Shown: one piece after another, positions 1,911 through 18,417 of the stretch
Layout: the number at the start of each line of letters is the position of its first letter
Numbering within the stretch: the first letter of the stretch is position 1
Origin: a virus
Virus record (IMG/VR): IMGVR_UViG_3300045988_092438
Reading direction: 5' to 3' (one strand)
DNA: 64,000 nt
Position numbers and translations under genes: made by a program
Notes under the pieces: model-generated
The model's input: the letters and a program-made list of their open reading frames with translations, nothing else
What the model was told of the DNA's origin: nothing
Databases searched by the model: none

Positions 1911-2564
1911 TTAGTAGTCCTCCTTACTTTCATAAGCAAATACAGTTCCATCAACTGTGTCATAAACAGGTAACTTATTCACCCAATTTTCAGTAACACT
2001 ATCACTGTAGAAATAACACACATACTCTGGTAAATCTGTGCCATGTACAATTACCTTATACACATTTGCTAAGGTCTCTGGCTCAACTACTATATCATCC
2101 ATCATTCCATTGTATGCTACTGAAAATTGAGGACACCCATTATTCTTCTCATAGATGACTTCTTCAACACTGCTAGGAAATTTACCACTATGTAGTCTGT
2201 TTAAGATTACTTGACACACATACTGTTGACTCAGTTCATGTCCTTTATAACTACCTGCTTCTGCTTCAACACATTGAGCAATCAAATAAACCTCTGCTTC
2301 TGTAAAATAGTAGTCAGCTATTTCTACTTCCTTCAACTCGTCATTTTCTTTTAACAACTTTCCATAGTCAATCTGTAATTCTTCATAACTCTCTTGCCAT
2401 GAATTGACTATTTTCTCATTATCACTTCTCTGCTTGTCTATTAAAGCTGTCTGCTCGTCATTCACCTCCAACAAGTCCATATAATCATCATTGGTCTTTA
2501 TAAAGAAGACAAGAAATAGCACAAGCAATACAAGGATAATTCCTTGATAAACATGTTCCTTCAC
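1911..2564 (-). CDS. membrane-anchored SleB/CwlJ-type cell wall hydrolase
   Basis: AQCVEAEAG...QVILNRL...FPSSVEEVI motif, N-terminal TM helix and coiled coil. AGGAGG sits 9 nt before GTG at 2564. Confidence 0.65.
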   Translation of the reverse strand: MKEHVYQGIILVLLVLFLVFFIKTNDDYMDLLEVNDEQTALIDKQRSDNEKIVNSWQESYEELQIDYGKLLKENDELKEVEIADYYFTEAEVYLIAQCVEAEAGSYKGHELSQQYVCQVILNRLHSGKFPSSVEEVIYEKNNGCPQFSVAYNGMMDDIVVEPETLANVYKVIVHGTDLPEYVCYFYSDSVTENWVNKLPVYDTVDGTVFAYESKEDY

Positions 2565-2627
2565 TTTTATAAACCTCCTAACTAAAAAAATAGCTTGCAT
2601 GATTTCTCACACAAGCTATTCTATCAT

Positions 2628-4310
2628 TTATTTTCGTGTTGGTAAAGTTTCCACAATAGAGTCAATAACCTTTCTCACATCACTTGCACCTGTACCAATA
2701 GAACTATACACATTGATAACATCAATCACTCTTTCAGAAAAACCAGTGATAAGGTTCTTTCTGTAGTCATCAATATTAGCAATAGCAAAGTTATTACCTA
2801 AAAGGTTATCAATGTAAAGTTTCTTAATGACCTTGTTTTTAAAGAGTTTATTCAACTCAGCGTCAGTATCATAACTTCTACCACCCCAACTATAACCCCT
2901 TCTTAAAACAAAGGTCTTTCCACTTAAACTGTAGCAATCATTATCAGAAAGTACAATCAGATTATCATACTTAGTGTCCTGCTGATTAAGAGTGTAAAGT
3001 GCTACATCAAGAGAAGTTCCACCTCCAACATTATGTCTCTGAATCTCTTTCATAATGTCCATGACTGTAGACTTTCTGGAAATGTTAGTTACCTGTTCAC
3101 ACTTAGTAGCAAATACATACACATCTGCAATACCTTTCTTAAAGCAGATAGCACCTAACATACAAGCTACAATGTCAGCGGTCACATCAGAAGCACCAGA
3201 AACAGGATGTCTCATACTTCCACTTCTATCAATAAGGATAGCACTGTAACCCTCAATGTCCTGTAAGTTATCAATAGACAGGTCAAGTGCTTCTATTAAA
3301 GCGTCCATGACTCTTCTCTTTCCGGCAGAATTACTCAGATTGGAAACTTCCATATATGCACTGTAGAATCTGAATGGTAACAGTCTGGACTTCTCAACCT
3401 CTTTCTTATTGGTGAGTTTAGCCACAATACTATCAACTGCTTCTTTATCACTAAACATACCTGCTCTGTCAAGGGCTACAAGGTTTTTCACAATAGCCAT
3501 TACAGAAGAGGTGTCAATAGACTTCTTAACATCAGCCTTAGTAGACTTGCTGTTGCTGTTCTTAGATTTAGAAAGCTCACTCTGCACCTGCTTCACTTCT
3601 TCACTGCCACCAAACTCTACATTACCCTCGATAATCTGCTTAAAGAAGTCTCTGCTGACTCTGGACTTAGCCGGATTAGGTCTCAACAGCTTTACACAAT
3701 CTGCCATAGACACTTCTCTGTTTTCTCCAAGTGCTTTAGATAACTGATACTCATTAAAGGACTCCAACTTGTGCTGTAAAGCCTTTCTCAACTGCATTGG
3801 AAGTGGCTGATTTCTGTGACTGGATTTATTCTTACCACGACCTTTTGTAGTCACTTCAAAACCAAACACATTCATCTGCATTGCCATAATGTCAGTAATG
3901 TCTTTACCTCTTCTCACAATATAGTCACTGTAAGTCTGTAACTTATTCTTACCAGTCACTTCATCAAGAAAGTCCTCACCCTTAAATCTTGGGTCATTAA
4001 AACAAGCTGTGAGTACTGCCAGAGGGTACTGAATCATATTGTATTCTCTACCAATTCTGGCTACCTTGAGTGCATACTCAACGTCCTCGTCTGGGATTTC
4101 TGCAATCAATCTCTGGATTTCTTTAAAATCACTCTCAGCAGTCTTGCCCTTCTCATAGAAAGTCTTCTCACCAAAGAAGCTACCTAACACTTTACTAAAC
4201 AGTGTTTCAAGAGTGTTCAGCTTATGTACCACACTTCCCTCGTGGTTCACTGTCTTTCTAGTGTCTGGTTTCATGTTTACACTACCACGTTTGTTGTTCA
4301 TTGTTGCCAT
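2628..4310 (-). CDS. rsr: Ro60-related protein (TROVE domain + vWA/MIDAS)
   Basis: Collinear by-eye similarity to Ro60: RLLPFRFYSAY, ILIDRSGSM (MIDAS DxSxS), GGGTS, IVLSDND, ITGFSERVIDVI. GGAGGA RBS before ATG 4310. Confidence 0.8.
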   Translation of the reverse strand: MATMNNKRGSVNMKPDTRKTVNHEGSVVHKLNTLETLFSKVLGSFFGEKTFYEKGKTAESDFKEIQRLIAEIPDEDVEYALKVARIGREYNMIQYPLAVLTACFNDPRFKGEDFLDEVTGKNKLQTYSDYIVRRGKDITDIMAMQMNVFGFEVTTKGRGKNKSSHRNQPLPMQLRKALQHKLESFNEYQLSKALGENREVSMADCVKLLRPNPAKSRVSRDFFKQIIEGNVEFGGSEEVKQVQSELSKSKNSNSKSTKADVKKSIDTSSVMAIVKNLVALDRAGMFSDKEAVDSIVAKLTNKKEVEKSRLLPFRFYSAYMEVSNLSNSAGKRRVMDALIEALDLSIDNLQDIEGYSAILIDRSGSMRHPVSGASDVTADIVACMLGAICFKKGIADVYVFATKCEQVTNISRKSTVMDIMKEIQRHNVGGGTSLDVALYTLNQQDTKYDNLIVLSDNDCYSLSGKTFVLRRGYSWGGRSYDTDAELNKLFKNKVIKKLYIDNLLGNNFAIANIDDYRKNLITGFSERVIDVINVYSSIGTGASDVRKVIDSIVETLPTRK

Positions 4311-4343
4311 AATAAATTCCTCCATTCTTTCATGTGTTTATAT

Positions 4344-4378
4344 AATAAAAGACCTCACAATCGGGGAATTGTGAAGTC
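4344..4378 (-). terminator. rho-independent terminator closing the RNA operon
   Basis: 11-bp stem 4351-4361/4368-4378. Its single non-Watson-Crick pair is G-U only on the minus strand, and TTTTATTATA follows. Confidence 0.7.
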
Positions 4379-4398
4379 CTTTAATCTTAACTCAAAAT

Positions 4399-4545
4399 AG
4401 CAAGAAGAAAACCATTATTGTGTGAAATCTTTGTGCTTCATTAGCAGTGAAGTGCCTTACCATTAGGCTATCTGTCAAATTTTTGGCTGACGGAGTAGGA
4501 GTCGAACCTACAAAATGATGTAAACAATAACTACACAATCCTGCT
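4399..4545 (-). ncRNA. stalk module 1: circularly permuted tRNA-like RNA (anticodon-type loop CUGCUAA, GCU), Y RNA/YrlA-like candidate
   Basis: Minus-sense order: outer helix AGCAGGA, loop TTGTGTA, inner helix GTTATTGT, T-arm GTAGG-TTCGACT-CCTAC. Then acceptor hairpin TCCGTCA-GCCAAAAATT-TGACAGA, D-arm GCCT-AATGGTA-AGGC and hairpin CTTCA-CUGCUAA-TGAAG. It closes with ACAATAAT, loop GGTTTTCT and TCTTGCT. Confidence 0.6.
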
Positions 4546-4564
4546 ACAATTATTTCTTCGTTAA

Positions 4565-4714
4565 AATTAGGAGTAAAGCCATTTAGCTGAATTTCATATA
4601 ATGAAAGTTTTCAAGACTTTTGCGTATTCCAATTTCGCCAAATTGCTTTTACAGAGCAATTATCGGATTTGAACCGATATATTATGATGTAAGCTAAATG
4701 TACACAACCCAATT
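4565..4714 (-). ncRNA. stalk module 2: circularly permuted tRNA-like RNA (anticodon-type loop CUUGAAA, UGA), Y RNA/YrlA-like candidate
   Basis: Outer helix AATTGGG/CCTAATT, inner helix CATTTAGCT/AGCTAAATG (9 bp perfect), third helix TCATA/TATGA. T-arm ATCGG-TTCAAAT-CCGAT. Perfect 7-bp acceptor hairpin AATTGCT-CTGTAAA-AGCAATT. D-arm GCG..CGC. Hairpin AAAGT-CTTGAAA-ACTTT. Confidence 0.65.
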
Positions 4715-4728
4715 ATTATTCTCTCATA

Positions 4729-4854
4729 AAGTGGAGTAAAACGATAAAGTCTGTTTGTTTATCATAATGGGATTTGAACCCATATTCGTTCTGTGTTAGA
4801 AAACTGTCTTAACCATTTGACTATATGATGTAAACTTTATCTGCACAACCACTT
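4729..4854 (-). ncRNA. stalk module 3 (leader-trailer stalk enclosing the tRNA at 4759..4830)
   Basis: Outer helix AAGTGG/CCACTT, inner helix GATAAAGT/ACTTTATC, internal loop TTGTGCA x GTTTTACT. Confidence 0.6.
4759..4830 (-). tRNA. cloverleaf tRNA with anticodon loop CUAACAC (reads AAC, nominally Val); atypical
   Basis: Hand fold: acceptor CATCATA/TATGATA with a C1-A72 mismatch, D-arm GTC..GAC with a GG loop, anticodon stem GTTTT/AGAAC, T-arm ATGGG-TTCAAAT-CCCAT. Confidence 0.55.
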
Positions 4855-4868
4855 AATTTACTTTTCAT

Positions 4869-5002
4869 CAATAAGGAAGAAAAACGTGAAAGACTTCTTT
4901 TTCATATTGTTGGAATTGAACCAACTACACTTATTTCCCAAAAATAATGCTCTACCGATTGAGCTAAACATGATGTAATCTTTCACTACACATTCCTTAT
5001 TG
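4869..5002 (-). ncRNA. stalk module 4 (leader-trailer stalk enclosing tRNA-Pro)
   Basis: Outer helix CAATAAGGAA/TTCCTTATTG (10 bp perfect), inner helix GTGAAAGA/TCTTTCAC, internal loop TGTGTA x GTTTTTC. Confidence 0.65.
4901..4973 (-). tRNA. tRNA-Pro (UGG)
   Basis: Acceptor TCATGTT/AATATGA, D-arm GCTC-AATCGGTA-GAGC, anticodon arm TTATT-TTTGGGA-AATAA, T-arm GTTGG-TTCAATT-CCAAC. Confidence 0.8.
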
Positions 5003-5059
5003 TTTTAACACTGCTTTCAGCGTGTTTACACTATAACACACATTCTGAAAGCTGTCAAA

Positions 5060-5132
5060 CTGCCCTTACTGGATTTGAACCAGTGAAATGCAGGAGTCAA
5101 AGTCCTGTGCCTTACCACTTGGCGAAAGGGCA
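5060..5132 (-). tRNA. tRNA-Gln (UUG)
   Basis: TGCCCTT-TC-GCCAAGTGGTAAGGC-A-CAGGA-CTTTGAC-TCCTG..ACTGG-TTCAAAT-CCAGT-AAGGGCA-G. The U1-A72 pair and D-arm resemble bacterial tRNA-Gln. Confidence 0.8.
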
Positions 5133-5292
5133 TTAAAGCTGACATTTTCTCACGCATTTACCTTCCACCAGTGACACTTCTTAGTCATCACCAATGGTAC
5201 AGTCGAGTGGAGGGGCTGTCAGCTCACCTACTTTGGCTTATCTCTAACACATGAAAGTGAGAGTGTTTCTCCGGCACATTACCTCCGAAGAG

Positions 5293-5365
5293 TCGGAATG
5301 ACACGACTTGAACGTGCGACAAATAGATTAAAAGTCTACTGCTCTACCAACTGAGCTACATTCCG
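5293..5365 (-). tRNA. tRNA-Lys (UUU)
   Basis: CGGAATG-TA-GCTCAGTTGGTAGAGC-A-GTAGA-CTTTTAA-TCTAT-TTGTC-GCACG-TTCAAGT-CGTGT-CATTCCG-A. Confidence 0.85.
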
Positions 5366-5590
5366 TTAAGTCACTGTGGTAGGAGAGTCCGTCTATTATA
5401 CTCTCTGTTCACACTTCATTGGATAGACTAAAGTGATTTCGGCTACTACCTCCTTGTCTGCTACTCATACATATCCGTCTTGTCTATCAAGACCTTTCGC
5501 TTTGGCAATCAACAAGTTTGTGACTATCAGCATTTTTATGTAAGTCCTCCACTCCTGGAATACCTTACTTAGTCGGCTGACAAGACTAAA

Positions 5591-5678
5591 CTGACTCAGA
5601 GGACTCGAACCTGTGCTACGCATATAGCGTACTAAAAGATTAGCAATCTCTCCTCTTCACCAACTTGAGTAACACTCC
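5591..5678 (-). tRNA. class II tRNA-Ser(GCU)-like element whose acceptor strands do not pair (pseudo-tRNA or tRNA-like RNA)
   Basis: D-arm CTC..GAG, anticodon arm AGAGA-TTGCTAA-TCTTT, long variable arm TACGC-TATAT-GCGTA, T-arm ACAGG-TTCGAGT-CCTCT with one C-C mismatch. The 5' strand GGAGTGT cannot pair with the 3' strand GAGTCAG. Confidence 0.4.
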
Positions 5679-5771
5679 ATTACAGACAGTGTGATTTTAA
5701 CACCCCTGCTCACTTATTTACACCAAAGGGCTTTGGCTGTAAACTGTCTGCGTCTCTTGAAGACATTTCAG

Positions 5772-5800
5772 AGTATATCACAGCTTAAAACTGCTGTCAA
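5772..5800 (-). promoter_or_regulatory. sigma70-type promoter for the RNA operon
   Basis: Minus-sense TTGACA (5800-5795), 17 nt, then TATACT (5777-5772) with a TG at the extended -10 position. It lies directly after the stop of the upstream CDS. Confidence 0.65.
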
Positions 5801-16338: not shown

Positions 16339-18417
16339 CTAAATATCAGCGTCCACTATATCTTCTTTTTTATCTTCATCACTCTTACCTAAGTCACCGA
16401 AAATTTTCTCTAAAATTCCTCCACGTTGTGGGTTCGTGACTTGAGTAGTCATTTCCTGTGTACCATCACTTCTGAGAATTTTGGTTTGTCTGAGAACTTC
16501 TGTACTTCCATTCTCATACATAGCTTTAAGCTGTCCTAAATATCTCATAGACTGGTCCATCATAGCAGACACATTCGGGTCTGGCAGTCCACCTTCAAGC
16601 ATTTCAAACATCATGGTTCTTTGTAATCTTCCCAGTGAGAAGTCCACAATACCCTGCATAGCTTGAATAATATCACCCATATCCCTTGTGTCAAACTTAT
16701 CAAAGATTTTGTTATAAGCACAAGCAAATCCGGCTTTATATTCTGGACATTTCTGAGCCGCATAACAGGTATCACAAGCCAGTTTAGGAAACTTCTTTGA
16801 GTACATCTTTTTTGGCTTCAACACTTGTCTCTGACCTTTAAGGAAGTGTCCATGTTCATCACGGATAGGTGTAATTCCCTCTTCTGCAAAGATTTCATCA
16901 TCTAAAGAATCAATCTCTGGTGCTTCACCATCAGTACTCTCTGGCAGGTATTTTGAAAGGACATTAAGGACTTCCATTTCAGAAACGTCCTCAGTGTCAT
17001 ATTCATCATCTGTGATATAAGTCTCACGCTCTTTCACTACCCTGTCAAAATTCGTGCCGAGAAGTAAGAGTTTATCATTCTCACCTAAAAGGTTCTCTTT
17101 GTAGAACTGAATAAGGTCAGTGACCCTTTCTTCATCACTCTGGACAATCCTGTTGATATAGAGGTCATGGATTTCTTTAATCACCTCTGGTGTATAAACC
17201 CGATTGATAAAGTCTGCATAATCTGGGTTATCCCAGTTCATAAAACAGGTCATATCAATAACACAGTTTAAAGCCTGTACTCTGTCCTCTTTAGAGACAT
17301 TAAAGAGTTCTGCATAGTGTTCCCATGTAGCGTCCTGCTCTTCTGGATTGTCTAACCACTCTGGTGTAGGGTATTCAATAGAGTCAAGGTCTGCTTCTGT
17401 TCTCTTCTCTCCCTTTGGTCTTAACCAGTACATTCTGGCTCTACACTGCTTCTGAATATATTCCTCTGCTTCAATAAAAGCATGAACATTTACCCTAATC
17501 ATTTCTGTGCTGTCTTCATCAAGTAACTTCTGTTCATCAAAGCCCAGAGAAACAAGTTTCGGGAGCATATTACCCTTCCACTTGTCTTTCTTTAAACGTG
17601 TCATCTTCTTACCAGTCCAGTAGTTGACTTCACCATACTGCAATCCTACCATCCACGTTGTAGAGTCTACTGTGTAAAATGGGAGGGAAGTTAAAAGAGA
17701 AGTCTTTGTCATAGCCATTCCATGTACAACAGTATTATATTTCTCTGTAATTCTAAGTCGGTCTCTGCAAATTCTCTCTCCGTCATCAGAGTCAAACTCC
17801 CAAGGCATACCAATATAGGGATAACGCTGTGCATATTGTTCCCAAGTTCTTGCTGTCTGCCCTTCATGGTAAATGAAACACACTGGAATACCTGTCTCAA
17901 GCATAAAAGGCTCAAAGTACTTTTCATTCCACTGCTGAACAATCTCTGGGTCAACATGACCTTCAATATCAAGATTGGCAATAGCAAAGATAATGTCCTT
18001 GTGCTTTTTAGCCCATTTTAAATATCTATCAATCTGTTTCTCCCAGTCTTCAATAGTGAACTCGGCATACTTAGAGTCATTCCGGTAAGTGTAAGCACCA
18101 GAGTCAACAAAGAATTTGATACCAAGACCACTAAACTTATCAACATTCATGTGTTTATTCTGCACATACTGATAGGACACCAGAAAGTTTCTGATACCCA
18201 TATCATACAGAATGTCGAAGTTTCTTTCATCTTCAACACCAGAGTATAACATATGAAAGTCCTGTTCATGGTCTACAATATCCCACAATGTCTTTGGCTT
18301 CTCTTGTACTGCTTCACCAGAATGGTCTTCTTTATTCGTAATTTGATTAAATTTGGACTTTCCAGAAGACTCTGGGGTATTTGTAGGCATTGCCTTTTTG
18401 AGCTTTAATTTAGGCAT
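16339..18417 (-). CDS. dpdA: DpdA-like (TGT-fold) 7-deazaguanine DNA transglycosylase with a ~350-aa C-terminal extension
   Basis: FFVDSGAYTYR, VVHGMAMTK and YTVDSTTWM motifs in the N-terminal half. Sits next to folE/queC/queE/queD. The C-terminal part carries CDTCYAAQKCPEYKAGFAC. Confidence 0.6.
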   Translation of the reverse strand: MPKLKLKKAMPTNTPESSGKSKFNQITNKEDHSGEAVQEKPKTLWDIVDHEQDFHMLYSGVEDERNFDILYDMGIRNFLVSYQYVQNKHMNVDKFSGLGIKFFVDSGAYTYRNDSKYAEFTIEDWEKQIDRYLKWAKKHKDIIFAIANLDIEGHVDPEIVQQWNEKYFEPFMLETGIPVCFIYHEGQTARTWEQYAQRYPYIGMPWEFDSDDGERICRDRLRITEKYNTVVHGMAMTKTSLLTSLPFYTVDSTTWMVGLQYGEVNYWTGKKMTRLKKDKWKGNMLPKLVSLGFDEQKLLDEDSTEMIRVNVHAFIEAEEYIQKQCRARMYWLRPKGEKRTEADLDSIEYPTPEWLDNPEEQDATWEHYAELFNVSKEDRVQALNCVIDMTCFMNWDNPDYADFINRVYTPEVIKEIHDLYINRIVQSDEERVTDLIQFYKENLLGENDKLLLLGTNFDRVVKERETYITDDEYDTEDVSEMEVLNVLSKYLPESTDGEAPEIDSLDDEIFAEEGITPIRDEHGHFLKGQRQVLKPKKMYSKKFPKLACDTCYAAQKCPEYKAGFACAYNKIFDKFDTRDMGDIIQAMQGIVDFSLGRLQRTMMFEMLEGGLPDPNVSAMMDQSMRYLGQLKAMYENGSTEVLRQTKILRSDGTQEMTTQVTNPQRGGILEKIFGDLGKSDEDKKEDIVDADI

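What the first reader, a model, noticed from the sequence alone, without database searches (positions are those of the whole stretch)
2628..5800. Phage Ro60/TROVE-vWA orthologue placed directly behind a promoter-to-terminator RNA-only operon
Seen in the sequence: the 560-aa product of 2628..4310 is collinear by eye with Ro60. The matches are RLLPFRFYSAY vs human RIHPFHILIAL, the MIDAS motif ILIDRSGSM vs LAVDVSASM, GGGTS vs AGGTD, IVLSDND vs IVFTDNE, and ITGFSERVIDVI vs MCGFDTGALDVI. Upstream on the same strand lie 1.4 kb with no credible ORF. That stretch is bounded by TTGACA-17-TATACT with a TG extension (5800..5772) and by a hairpin plus T-run (4378..4344). Established knowledge: Ro60/Rsr proteins act with Y RNAs that are usually encoded next to them, and one bacterial subclass (YrlA) is tRNA-like. 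Inference: the RNAs of this operon are partners or clients of the phage Ro60.
Basis: partly seen in the sequence, partly recalled or inferred. Interest (0 to 1): 0.8.

Follow-up and report, generated by a model that had tools for sequence, protein, structure and literature searches.

The report
Phage Ro60 with four tRNA-capped Y RNAs
A gut or rumen phage carries a Ro60 RNA-binding ring protein directly behind four tandem small-RNA genes, each a conserved bulged stem capped by a whole tRNA fold (two are called tRNAs by gene finders), a new variant of the known Ro60/Y-RNA partnership.

Summary
The ORF at 2628..4310(-) is a Ro60 orthologue: it passes Pfam TROVE and vWA_Ro60, and its 13 best fold matches are all solved Ro60 structures. 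The 1.4 kb upstream has no credible ORF and is bounded by the stated promoter and terminator hairpin.

The RNA stretch has two parts. The distal part holds plain tRNAs (Lys, Gln), a dead Ser/Asn chimera and two conserved structured spacers. The proximal part (5001..4398) has its own conserved promoter (5058..5030) and holds four tandem modules.

Each module is built the same way: helix H1, an invariant internal loop (5' WUGUGYA, 3' GNUUUNCU), helix H2, an invariant UUACAUCA, then a complete tRNA fold.
- Two folds are unpermuted and are called tRNA-Pro and tRNA-Val.
- Two are circularly permuted and YrlA-like (weak Rfam hit).

H1 and H2 covary strongly. The modules were found in all 16 Ro60-bearing contigs of this phage lineage and in none of 5 syntenic contig types that lack Ro60 but mostly keep plain tRNAs.

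The most likely reading is a phage Ro60/Y-RNA particle whose Y RNAs carry full tRNA mimics. Phage Ro60 with upstream Y RNAs is already known (22 phages in Chen 2014; Thermus phage phiLo 2025), so this is a new variant, not a new kind. RNA binding and biological role are untested.

The parts
2628..4310 (-). Ro60 orthologue (TROVE ring plus vWA domain with a complete MIDAS motif), 560 aa
   Evidence: Pfam TROVE 5.7e-15 and vWA_Ro60 9.7e-9, both above their cut-offs. AF2 model pLDDT 71.5, pTM 0.68. The top 13 Foldseek PDB hits are all Ro60, aligned over the whole length. D366, S368, S370, T437 and D461 are invariant in 20 homologues.
4344..4384 (-). Intrinsic-terminator-like hairpin plus U-run, 34 nt before the Ro60 start codon
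   Evidence: -20 kcal/mol, z = -5.25. A hairpin plus T-run sits at the same place in relatives with a different sequence.
4398..4546 (-). Module M3: Y-type stem plus a circularly permuted complete tRNA fold (T arm, 7-bp closed acceptor-like hairpin, D arm, anticodon-like arm CUGCUAA)
   Evidence: Rfam YrlA 28.7 bits, E = 0.0011, below the gathering score of 69. The MFE fold reproduces all helices. Covariation.
4564..4715 (-). Module M2: Y-type stem plus a permuted tRNA fold (anticodon-like loop CUUGAAA)
   Evidence: Weak tRNA-model hits at 4576-4647 and 4654-4717. MFE fold z = -2.75. Covariation.
4727..4856 (-). Module M1: Y-type stem enclosing an unpermuted cloverleaf, called tRNA-Val(AAC) at 4759..4830
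   Evidence: ARAGORN and Rfam tRNA, 57.6 bits. H1 AAGUGG:CCACUU and H2 GAUAAAGU:ACUUUAUC. Covariation.
4870..5001 (-). Module M0: Y-type stem enclosing an unpermuted cloverleaf, called tRNA-Pro(UGG) at 4901..4973
   Evidence: Rfam tRNA 61.1 bits. The MFE fold gives H1, H2 and a cloverleaf, z = -4.33. Covariation.
5030..5058 (-). Promoter P2 (TTGACA-17-TATAGT, TG-extended) directly upstream of M0
   Evidence: 11 of 12 positions match. A matching site was scored upstream of the first module in 8 of 13 relatives; in L012 a TGACA...TGCTATAAT was read by eye at the edge of the stretch.
5060..5132 (-). Plain tRNA-Gln(UUG)
   Evidence: U1-A72 plus G73.
5133..5291 (-). Conserved structured spacer B (candidate small RNA)
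   Evidence: RNAalifold: 44 pairs, 8 with compensatory changes in 5 sequences.
5292..5365 (-). Plain tRNA-Lys(UUU)
   Evidence: 70.7 bits.
5366..5597 (-). Conserved structured spacer A (candidate small RNA)
   Evidence: 55 pairs, 12 with compensatory changes; 98.5% of cells paired against 33-45% when slid.
5598..5671 (-). Dead chimeric tRNA: the 5' part of tRNA-Ser(GCU) fused to the 3' end of tRNA-Asn by a ~496-bp deletion
   Evidence: Below the tRNA threshold (24.4 bits) and not called by ARAGORN. BLAST against L002 shows the deletion between ~31-bp repeats.
5772..5800 (-). Promoter P1 (TTGACA-17-TATACT, TG-extended) at the head of the RNA cluster
   Evidence: 11 of 12 positions match.

Best explanation
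This is a phage Ro60/Y-RNA cassette. Transcription from P2, and probably also from P1, yields four tandem RNAs of about 130-150 nt (M0-M3). It then reaches a strong hairpin terminator, and read-through of that terminator would express Ro60. Each RNA has a long stem formed by its 5' and 3' ends (H1, invariant internal loop, H2, invariant UUACAUCA). By analogy with Y RNAs, this stem is the docking site for the Ro60 ring. Each stem is capped by a complete tRNA fold as the effector module. In M0 and M1 the fold is joined through the acceptor stem. In M2 and M3 the acceptor end is closed by a loop and the stem leaves at the variable-loop position.

Shown here: the protein family and fold, the RNA structures and their covariation, and the joint presence or absence of the modules and Ro60.

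Inferred: that Ro60 binds these stems. Also inferred is the role of the tRNA folds. As in bacterial RYPER complexes and Thermus phage phiLo, they would tether Ro60 to a host tRNA- or RNA-handling enzyme, most likely the 3'-5' exonuclease PNPase, to remodel or degrade structured RNA during infection. About 0.7 of the weight sits on 'Ro60/Y-RNA particle' and about 0.35 on the PNPase-tether role specifically.
For: Protein
- TROVE and vWA_Ro60 pass their cut-offs and the fold matches only Ro60 structures.

RNA motif and structure
- The motif TGTGYR-N-YACATCA occurs 4 times in the 64-kb window, all at 4993..4516(-), against 0.47 expected.
- A scan for motif plus pairing finds exactly these four modules on both strands.
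- H1 and H2 in 19 tRNA-bearing modules: 95.4% of cells paired against 41-55% when slid, and 15 of 16 pairs show double changes.
- In 21 permuted modules, all seven helices together: 94.7% paired against 34-46% when slid, and 27 of 37 pairs show double changes.
- Across these 40 modules the loop bases UGUG-A, UUACAUCA and U..CU never change, while the flanking helices covary.
- MFE folds reproduce the design.

Link to Y RNAs
- M3 and its orthologues give YrlA hits of 26-38 bits at the syntenic spot.
- In a Ruminococcus MAG, three tandem YrlA hits (32-44 bits) upstream of Ro60 carry the same GUGYAG ... UUACUUCG motifs and the same H1/H2 layout.

Link to Ro60
- Modules are present in 16 of 16 Ro60-bearing contigs of the lineage, always on the Ro60 strand and just upstream. 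One of these has Ro60 at only 45% identity and GC of 48%, and by eye its modules lack full tRNA folds.
- Modules are absent from 5 of 5 syntenic contig types that lack Ro60, although 4 of these keep plain tRNAs there.
- A scan of IMG/VR with the motif returned the clade's contigs plus only 4 singletons without TROVE.

Precedent
- Y RNAs lie next to Ro60 in 254 bacteria and 22 phages (PMC4201824).
- phiLo Ro60 binds two Y-like RNAs encoded upstream of its gene and forms a complex with host PNPase (PMC12135203).
Against: - No binding or expression data exist.
- The YrlA match is far below Rfam's gathering score (28.7 against 69).
- The proposed Rsr-binding motif GNCGAAN0-1G / CGAA is absent.
- The covariation sets mix paralogues and orthologues, and the structure was derived from the same sequences.
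- The presence/absence pattern could reflect only one or a few gain or loss events.
- M0 and M1 score as good tRNAs and may simply be tRNA precursors.
- No promoter was found between the terminator and Ro60, so Ro60 expression by read-through is an assumption.
Confidence: 0.68

Rival explanations
1. Only M2 and M3 (or only M3) are Y RNAs. M0 and M1 are ordinary phage tRNA genes (Pro, Val). Their paired leader and trailer act as a processing or stability signal, and RNase P and 3' processing release normal decoding tRNAs.
For: M0 and M1 score 61 and 58 bits on the tRNA model and are called by ARAGORN. The M0 anticodon UGG is kept in all close relatives. Phage tRNA arrays are common.
Against: M0 and M1 carry the same invariant loops and the same UUACAUCA as the YrlA-like modules, and they disappear together with Ro60 while plain tRNAs stay. 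The M1-type modules share one A/U-rich acceptor stem (CAUCAUA with a C1-A72 mismatch) plus A73 whatever their anticodon (Val-AAC, Cys, Gly, Asn, Asp). The plain tRNAs carry discriminators that fit the E. coli-type identity rules as I recall them (Asn G73, Cys U73, Gln G73, Pro C1-G72/A73). L008 has both a plain and a module-embedded Pro-UGG. A34 in a Val tRNA is unusual for bacteria (own knowledge).
Confidence: 0.2
2. The conserved stem and loop are bound or cut by some other factor (host RNase III or RNase E, or another phage protein). Ro60 is only a linked passenger gene.
For: Nothing here shows contact with Ro60. The canonical CGAA motif is missing. Long duplexes flanking tRNAs can be nuclease substrates (own knowledge).
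Against: The same stem and loop design accompanies Ro60 genes that are only 24-29% identical, in crAss-like phages and in Clostridia. In this lineage it is never seen without Ro60. The neighbouring genes (cell-wall hydrolase, DUF1653, DUF932) persist without the modules.
Confidence: 0.08
3. The four modules are non-functional products of recent tandem duplication and recombination within a tRNA array.
For: This array does recombine: the window carries a Ser/Asn tRNA fusion left by a 496-bp deletion. The tRNA bodies inside M1 are swapped between close relatives.
Against: Helices keep pairing through many compensatory changes while the loops stay invariant. The modules persist down to 45% Ro60 identity. 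P2 and the terminator are conserved around them.
Confidence: 0.03

Closest known systems
YrlA-type bacterial Y RNAs (Rfam RF02553; Chen et al. 2014, PMC4201824)
   Same: Encoded next to Ro60 on the same strand. A stem formed by the 5' and 3' ends carries a tRNA-like domain in the permuted order T arm, closed acceptor-like hairpin, D arm. The YUAY element is present (UUAC here). Several copies can lie in tandem.
   Different: - The score is 28.7 bits against a gathering score of 69.
- There is no GNCGAA motif.
- M2 and M3 also have a closed anticodon-like arm, so the stem leaves at the variable-loop position instead of replacing the anticodon stem-loop.
- An extra outer helix H1 and the loop WUGUGYA / GNUUUNCU lie outside the Rfam model.
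- M0 and M1 are not permuted at all.
Thermus phage phiLo Ro60 with Yrl1/Yrl2 (PMC12135203; PDB 9KOP, 9L5Y)
   Same: A phage Ro60 with Y-like RNAs encoded directly upstream of its gene. It is the best sequence and fold match to this protein.
   Different: The phiLo RNAs were picked out by their CGAA motif and are described as having a stem-bulge-stem structure; no tRNA-like domain turned up in the passages I read. Here there are four RNAs with complete tRNA folds and a different loop motif. The proteins are about 18-19% identical in the fold alignment.
Deinococcus radiodurans Yrn1 and the RYPER complex (Ro60/Y RNA/PNPase)
   Same: In Yrn1 the T-like stem-loop and partial D-loop features are oriented the other way round from YrlA relative to the 5' end (PMC4201824), which I read as the M0/M1-like order. 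This is the functional model for how a Y RNA tethers Ro60 to an exonuclease.
   Different: Yrn1 has only partial tRNA features. M0 and M1 have a full 7-bp acceptor stem and a full cloverleaf that gene finders call tRNA.
E. coli phage Bas63 gp130 (Ro60-like), which counters the Ppl defence system (PMC11482910)
   Same: A Ro60-like phage gene beside an array annotated as tRNAs. The authors speculate that some of those 'tRNAs' are really Y RNAs.
   Different: That was speculation without an RNA analysis. Here the Y-type stems around tRNA folds are shown by covariation. Bas63 was not examined here (my accession guess was wrong).
crAss-like phage csAssE-Sib (OR575929): tRNA-Tyr and tRNA-Lys upstream of a 'Ro sixty-related protein'
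   Same: Read by eye in one sequence, the design looks the same: a YrlA-like RNA plus two annotated tRNAs, each enclosed by H1, a 7-nt 5' loop (UGGUGAU), H2 and UUACUUCGAA, with an 8-nt 3' loop NGCUUUUC. MFE folds show the outer stems for two of the three units; the third is at chance level, z = 0.01.
   Different: The Ro60 is only 24.6% identical and the loop letters differ. The GenBank record annotates the RNAs as ordinary tRNAs. No comparative support was collected here.

Membership tests
Ro60 / TROVE protein family | TROVE (HEAT-repeat ring) domain | tested here: met
   PF05731 scores 55.9 bits against a cut-off of 23. The helical repeat region aligns over its whole length with solved Ro60 structures.
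Ro60 / TROVE protein family | C-terminal vWA domain with a MIDAS motif (DxSxS...T...D) | tested here: met
   PF25045 vWA_Ro60 scores 35.8 bits against a cut-off of 27.7. D366, S368, S370, T437 and D461 are invariant in 20 homologues.
Ro60 / TROVE protein family | Overall fold matching solved Ro60 rings | tested here: met
   The top 13 Foldseek hits are all Ro60 (phiLo, Rsr, Xenopus, human), E about 1e-11 to 1e-9, TM 0.53-0.69. The next hits are isolated vWA domains at E > 1e-3. The model is of moderate quality (pLDDT 71.5).
Ro60 / TROVE protein family | Binds Y RNA on the outer surface and single-stranded ends in the central hole | not testable with these tools
   Needs binding assays or a structure of the complex.
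YrlA (Rfam RF02553) | Reaches the family's gathering score | tested here: not met
   M3 scores 28.7 bits against 69. Orthologues score 26-38 bits.
YrlA (Rfam RF02553) | Encoded within 4 kb of Ro60 on the same strand | tested here: met
   M0-M3 lie 88-691 nt upstream of the start codon on the - strand.
YrlA (Rfam RF02553) | Stem of the 5' and 3' ends, plus T arm, closed acceptor-like stem and D arm in permuted order | tested here: met
   Met for M2 and M3: all helices are 86-100% paired with compensatory changes. M0 and M1 are not permuted.
YrlA (Rfam RF02553) | GNCGAAN0-1G motif near the 5' end (proposed Rsr-binding site) | tested here: not met
   The 5' strand reads GGN-WUGUGYA-(H2)-UUACAUCA, with no CGAA. 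The motif is as defined in PMC4201824.
tRNA (RF00005), for M0 and M1 | Cloverleaf scoring above the gathering score | tested here: met
   61.1 and 57.6 bits against 29. ARAGORN calls Pro-UGG and Val-AAC.
tRNA (RF00005), for M0 and M1 | Acceptor end fits the identity rules for the anticodon's amino acid, so the RNA can be charged | tested here: inconclusive
   Module cloverleaves share one acceptor stem and A73 across five or more anticodon identities, unlike the plain tRNAs. The identity rules are E. coli-type and come from my own knowledge. Charging was not tested.

The most novel reading that the evidence does not exclude
The module-embedded 'tRNAs' are not decoders at all. This phage group, and by extension crAss-like phages and possibly Bas63-like phages, would use Ro60 particles that display complete tRNA mimics with exchangeable anticodon arms. 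These would act as decoys, sensors or adaptors for host enzymes that target tRNA, such as anticodon nucleases or other defence systems. If so, some 'tRNA genes' annotated next to Ro60 in phage genomes are really a separate class of anti-defence Y RNAs.
Probability: 0.15. Interest if true: 0.85.

Novelty: new variant of a known kind. Interest (0 to 1): 0.6.

Why it matters
The tRNA-like domain of bacterial Y RNAs has been known since 2014, but what it does is still unknown. In this locus the mimicry is complete: four Y-type stems carry whole tRNA folds, two of them indistinguishable from tRNA genes to standard software. They are gained and lost together with Ro60.

Three things follow.
- It gives clean constructs for testing what a tRNA fold on a Y RNA recruits: stem only, tRNA only, permuted versus unpermuted.
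- It warns that 'tRNA genes' beside phage TROVE genes may be misannotated Y RNAs. The same layout was seen by eye in one crAss-like phage.
- It defines a conserved loop motif that lies outside the current Rfam YrlA model, which could extend detection of Y RNAs in Clostridia and gut phages.

Tried and rejected
A longer motif worked.
2. The outer pairing implied by Rfam's alignment of M3 (AUUGUGU:ACACAAU) was dropped in favour of H2 (GUUAUUGU:ACAAUAAU). H2 holds in all four module types and covaries.
3. A 3-bp GUG:UAC helix inside the internal loop is predicted for M1 and M2, but its middle pair is lost in M0 and M3 and nothing covaries. I treat these bases as loop.
4. I looked for a separate Ro60 promoter between the terminator and the start codon and found none at the scan threshold.
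5. Halovirus HGTV-1 and Vibrio phage phiKT1024 showed no YrlA or tRNA hit beside their TROVE genes, so the layout is not universal.
6. My guess at the Bas63 accession returned a different phage, so Bas63 was not examined.
7. A search with the upstream neighbour ORF returned only contigs already in hand. The downstream hydrolase was the query that revealed relatives without Ro60.
8. There is no close relative in INPHARED at the DNA level. The nearest cultured DNA polymerase is from Bacillus phage BCD7 at 38% identity. The host was not identified.

Full report
**Observation.**
- The ORF 2628..4325(-) is 565 aa.
GGAGG lies 8 nt upstream, and 19 homologues begin MATMN and are 546-562 aa long.
- All five quoted peptide motifs are in the translation.
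- The promoter TTGACA-17-TATACT with a TG extension at 5800..5772 matches 11 of 12 positions.
- The hairpin plus U-run at 4384..4344 folds at -20 kcal/mol, z = -5.25. The scan did not list it; read by eye, the stem can pair on into the T-run, which may be why.
- Between promoter and hairpin, the - strand has only four ORFs of 42-52 aa, and all overlap RNA genes.

**The protein is a Ro60 orthologue.**
- Pfam TROVE (55.9 bits, cut-off 23) and vWA_Ro60 (35.8 bits, cut-off 27.7) both pass.
- The best PDB sequence matches are Thermus phage phiLo Ro60 (9KOP/9L5Y, 6.5e-16), Deinococcus Rsr (2.9e-7) and Xenopus Ro60 (1.2e-4).
- An AF2 model built on 20 homologues (pLDDT 71.5, pTM 0.68) gives Ro60 structures as its 13 best Foldseek hits. 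They align over the whole length with TM 0.53-0.69. The next hits are isolated vWA domains at E > 1e-3.
- The MIDAS residues D366, S368, S370, T437 and D461 are invariant in the homologue alignment.
- The window is a phage. It encodes a DNA polymerase, DnaB, NrdD, tail and baseplate proteins and an endolysin, and all large genes lie on the - strand. There is no close relative in INPHARED.
- 389 homologues exist in metagenomes, many on contigs of about 82-93 kb.

**Anatomy of the RNA stretch.** Reading 5' to 3' on the - strand:
- promoter P1 (5800..5772);
- a tRNA-like remnant (5671..5598);
- a conserved 230-nt spacer;
- tRNA-Lys (5365..5292);
- a conserved 160-nt spacer;
- tRNA-Gln (5132..5060);
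- a second promoter P2 that is just as good (5058..5030, TTGACA-17-TATAGT with TG);
- four tandem modules M0-M3 (5001..4398);
- the terminator, and then Ro60.

The remnant is a fusion of the 5' part of tRNA-Ser with the 3' end of tRNA-Asn. It was made by a ~496-bp deletion between ~31-bp repeats, as the comparison with a relative whose Ro60 is 97% identical shows. That explains why no tRNA finder calls it.

**The modules.** The motif TGTGYR-N(5-14)-YACATCA occurs four times in the 64-kb window, all at 4993..4516(-), against 0.47 expected. Every copy has the same layout:
- helix H1;
- a 7-nt loop WUGUGYA;
- helix H2 of 8-9 bp, with a different sequence in each module;
- UUACAUCA;
- a tRNA domain;
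- the 3' strand of H2;
- an 8-nt loop GNUUUNCU;
- the 3' strand of H1.

A scan that requires both the motif and the pairing finds exactly these four modules on both strands of the window.

M0 encloses the cloverleaf called tRNA-Pro(UGG). M1 encloses the one called tRNA-Val(AAC). M2 and M3 instead run T arm, a 7-bp closed acceptor-like hairpin, D arm, and an anticodon-like arm with a loop of the form CU-NNN-AA. That is a whole tRNA, circularly permuted at the variable loop.

M3 is the weak Rfam YrlA hit (28.7 bits, E = 0.0011, gathering score 69). MFE folds of single sequences reproduce H1 and H2 in all four modules, the cloverleaf in M0, and all arms in M3.

**Comparative support.** Fourteen related loci came from IMG/VR, with Ro60 at 24-97% identity. 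All except the 24% one (a jumbo-phage contig) carry modules. One further locus came from a MAG and one from ENA.
- In an alignment of 19 tRNA-bearing modules, H1 and H2 are 95.4% paired against 41-55% when the partner is slid. Fifteen of 16 pairs show changes on both sides, and no shuffle out of 500 reaches the observed percentage paired or covariation score.
- In 21 permuted modules, the seven helices are 94.7% paired against 34-46% when slid, and 27 of 37 pairs show double changes.
- Across these 40 modules the loop bases UGUG and A, the octamer UUACAUCA, and U, C and U of the 3' loop never vary.

Invariant loops between covarying helices are the usual mark of a protein-binding site.

There are two caveats. 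The sets mix paralogues and orthologues, and I derived the structure from these same sequences.

**Link to Y RNAs.**
- Orthologues of M3 give YrlA hits of 26-38 bits at the syntenic position.
- In a Ruminococcus MAG whose Ro60 is 26% identical, three tandem YrlA hits (32-44 bits) lie upstream of Ro60. They read CACACAG-CAGUGYAG-AAAGCGG-UUACUUCG ... CCGCUUU-CGCCUAUUCU-CUGUGUG.
- Rfam's alignment there shows that its model begins at my H2. H1 and the GUGYAG loop therefore lie outside the model.
- Eleven of 79 distant Ro60 loci from Clostridia MAGs carry GUG(U/A)(A/U)-N8-UUACUUC(G/A) on the Ro60 strand, in 10 of them upstream of Ro60.

The window's modules are therefore diverged relatives of Clostridial YrlA-like RNAs. 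They lack the GNCGAAN0-1G motif proposed as the Rsr-binding site (PMC4201824). They do keep the YUAY element, as UUAC.

**Link to Ro60.**
- All 16 Ro60-bearing contigs of this lineage have 2-4 modules, always on the Ro60 strand and immediately upstream.
- One of them has Ro60 at only 45% identity and GC of 48%. By eye, its three modules have the same loops but no full tRNA folds. The stem and loop, not the tRNA, is therefore the constant partner of the protein.
- Homologues of the downstream hydrolase revealed syntenic relatives (hydrolase, DUF1653, in most DUF932, DNA ligase) that lack Ro60. Five distinct contig types have no TROVE match and no module. The three of them scanned with Rfam gave no YrlA hit at E <= 1.
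- Four of those five still keep plain tRNAs at the same spot.
- An IMG/VR scan with the motif returned the clade's contigs plus four single hits in contigs without TROVE.

Ro60 and the modules thus behave as one cassette. How many independent gain or loss events lie behind the pattern is unknown.

**Are M0 and M1 real tRNAs?** They score well (61 and 58 bits). However, M1-type modules in close relatives keep the same A/U-rich acceptor stem (CAUCAUA with a C1-A72 mismatch) and A73 while the anticodon changes among Val-AAC, Cys, Gly, Asn and Asp. The plain tRNAs of the same arrays carry discriminators that fit the E. coli-type identity rules as I recall them (Asn G73, Cys U73, Gln G73 with U1-A72, Pro A73 with C1-G72). 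One relative has both a plain and a module-embedded Pro-UGG. I therefore lean towards M0 and M1 being Y RNAs with an unpermuted tRNA-like domain, oriented as in Deinococcus Yrn1 and opposite to YrlA (PMC4201824), not ordinary decoders. This remains an inference.

**Mechanism.**
- Shown: the family and fold of the protein, the RNA structures, and the co-inheritance.
- Inferred from established Ro60 biology: Ro60 docks on the stem and loop, and the tRNA fold recruits a host factor. The best precedent is the Ro60/Y RNA/PNPase complex of bacteria and its phiLo counterpart (PMC12135203).
- A different role, countering a defence system, has been reported for the Ro60-like gp130 of phage Bas63. Its authors guessed that neighbouring 'tRNAs' might be Y RNAs (PMC11482910).
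- P2 is conserved upstream of the first module, and the terminator structure is conserved with a changed sequence. Together with the lack of a promoter before Ro60, this suggests abundant Y RNAs, with Ro60 made by terminator read-through.

**Novelty.** Phage Ro60 with adjacent Y RNAs is already known. Four things are new here:
- complete tRNA folds on Y-type stems;
- both topologies side by side in a four-gene array;
- a loop motif without CGAA;
- evidence that software-called tRNAs next to a phage TROVE gene belong to the Ro60 cassette.

In one crAss-like phage (csAssE-Sib), a similar layout can be read by eye around the annotated tRNA-Tyr and tRNA-Lys, and single-sequence folds support it for two of the three units. 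PhiCrAssBcn17 has five copies of GUG(U/A)(A/U)-N-UUAC(U/A)UCA in the unannotated gap after its TROVE gene. The variant may therefore be widespread in gut phages. I found no paper describing it in the searched library.

Noticed in passing
window 5598..5671 (-): A dead chimeric tRNA: the 5' part of tRNA-Ser(GCU) fused to the 3' end of tRNA-Asn. It was made by a ~496-bp deletion between ~31-bp repeats, relative to contigs whose Ro60 is 97% identical, and the intact tRNA-Asn was lost with it.
   Followed up: yes
window 5366..5597 (-): The spacer between the remnant and tRNA-Lys is as conserved as the coding DNA. It folds into a structure of 55 pairs, 12 of them with compensatory changes in 6 relatives (98.5% paired against 33-45% when slid). 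No Rfam family matches. It is a candidate new phage small RNA.
   Followed up: partly
window 5133..5291 (-): The spacer between tRNA-Lys and tRNA-Gln is also conserved and structured: 44 predicted pairs, 8 with compensatory changes in 5 sequences.
   Followed up: partly
window ~5010..5055 (-): An inverted repeat CAGCUUUCAG ... CUGAAAGCAG brackets the -10 element of promoter P2. In a relative it keeps pairing through G-U pairs (L004: GCUUUUAG / CUGAGAGC). This suggests an RNA hairpin in read-through transcripts from P1, or an operator.
   Followed up: no
window 16339..18417 (-): A 692-aa ORF matches the phage queuine tRNA-ribosyltransferase family (phrog_887, 1e-75). This may be a DpdA-like enzyme for 7-deazaguanine modification of DNA, not a tRNA enzyme.
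   Followed up: no
L225 (phage csAssE-Sib OR575929) 2436..2874: Directly upstream of the 'Ro sixty-related protein' lie a YrlA-like hit (28.5 bits) and the annotated tRNA-Tyr and tRNA-Lys. Read by eye in this one sequence, each is enclosed by H1, a 7-nt loop, H2 and UUACUUCGAA, with a 3' loop NGCUUUUC, the same design as in the window. MFE folds show the outer stems for two of the three units.
   Followed up: partly
L228 (Bacteroides phage PhiCrAssBcn17) 3929..4814: The 886-bp unannotated gap after the TROVE gene holds five copies of GUG(U/A)(A/U)-N-UUAC(U/A)UCA. It also holds a 144-nt tRNA-model hit (45.6 bits) with a large insertion. These are probably unannotated Y RNAs.
   Followed up: partly
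L150 (Ruminococcus MAG CADBZY010000006) 2500..2975: Three tandem YrlA-like RNAs lie upstream of a Ro60 gene. All score below Rfam's gathering score (32-44 bits). They have an outer helix and a GUGYAG loop that the Rfam model does not cover.
   Followed up: partly
M3 anticodon-like loop, window ~4415..4421 (-), and its orthologues: The three 'anticodon' bases differ between close relatives (GCU, UUU, GUU, and ACG and UGA in more distant ones), while the stem and the CU..AA frame are kept. The whole anticodon arm and T arm of M1 are swapped between contigs whose Ro60 is 97% identical.
   Followed up: no
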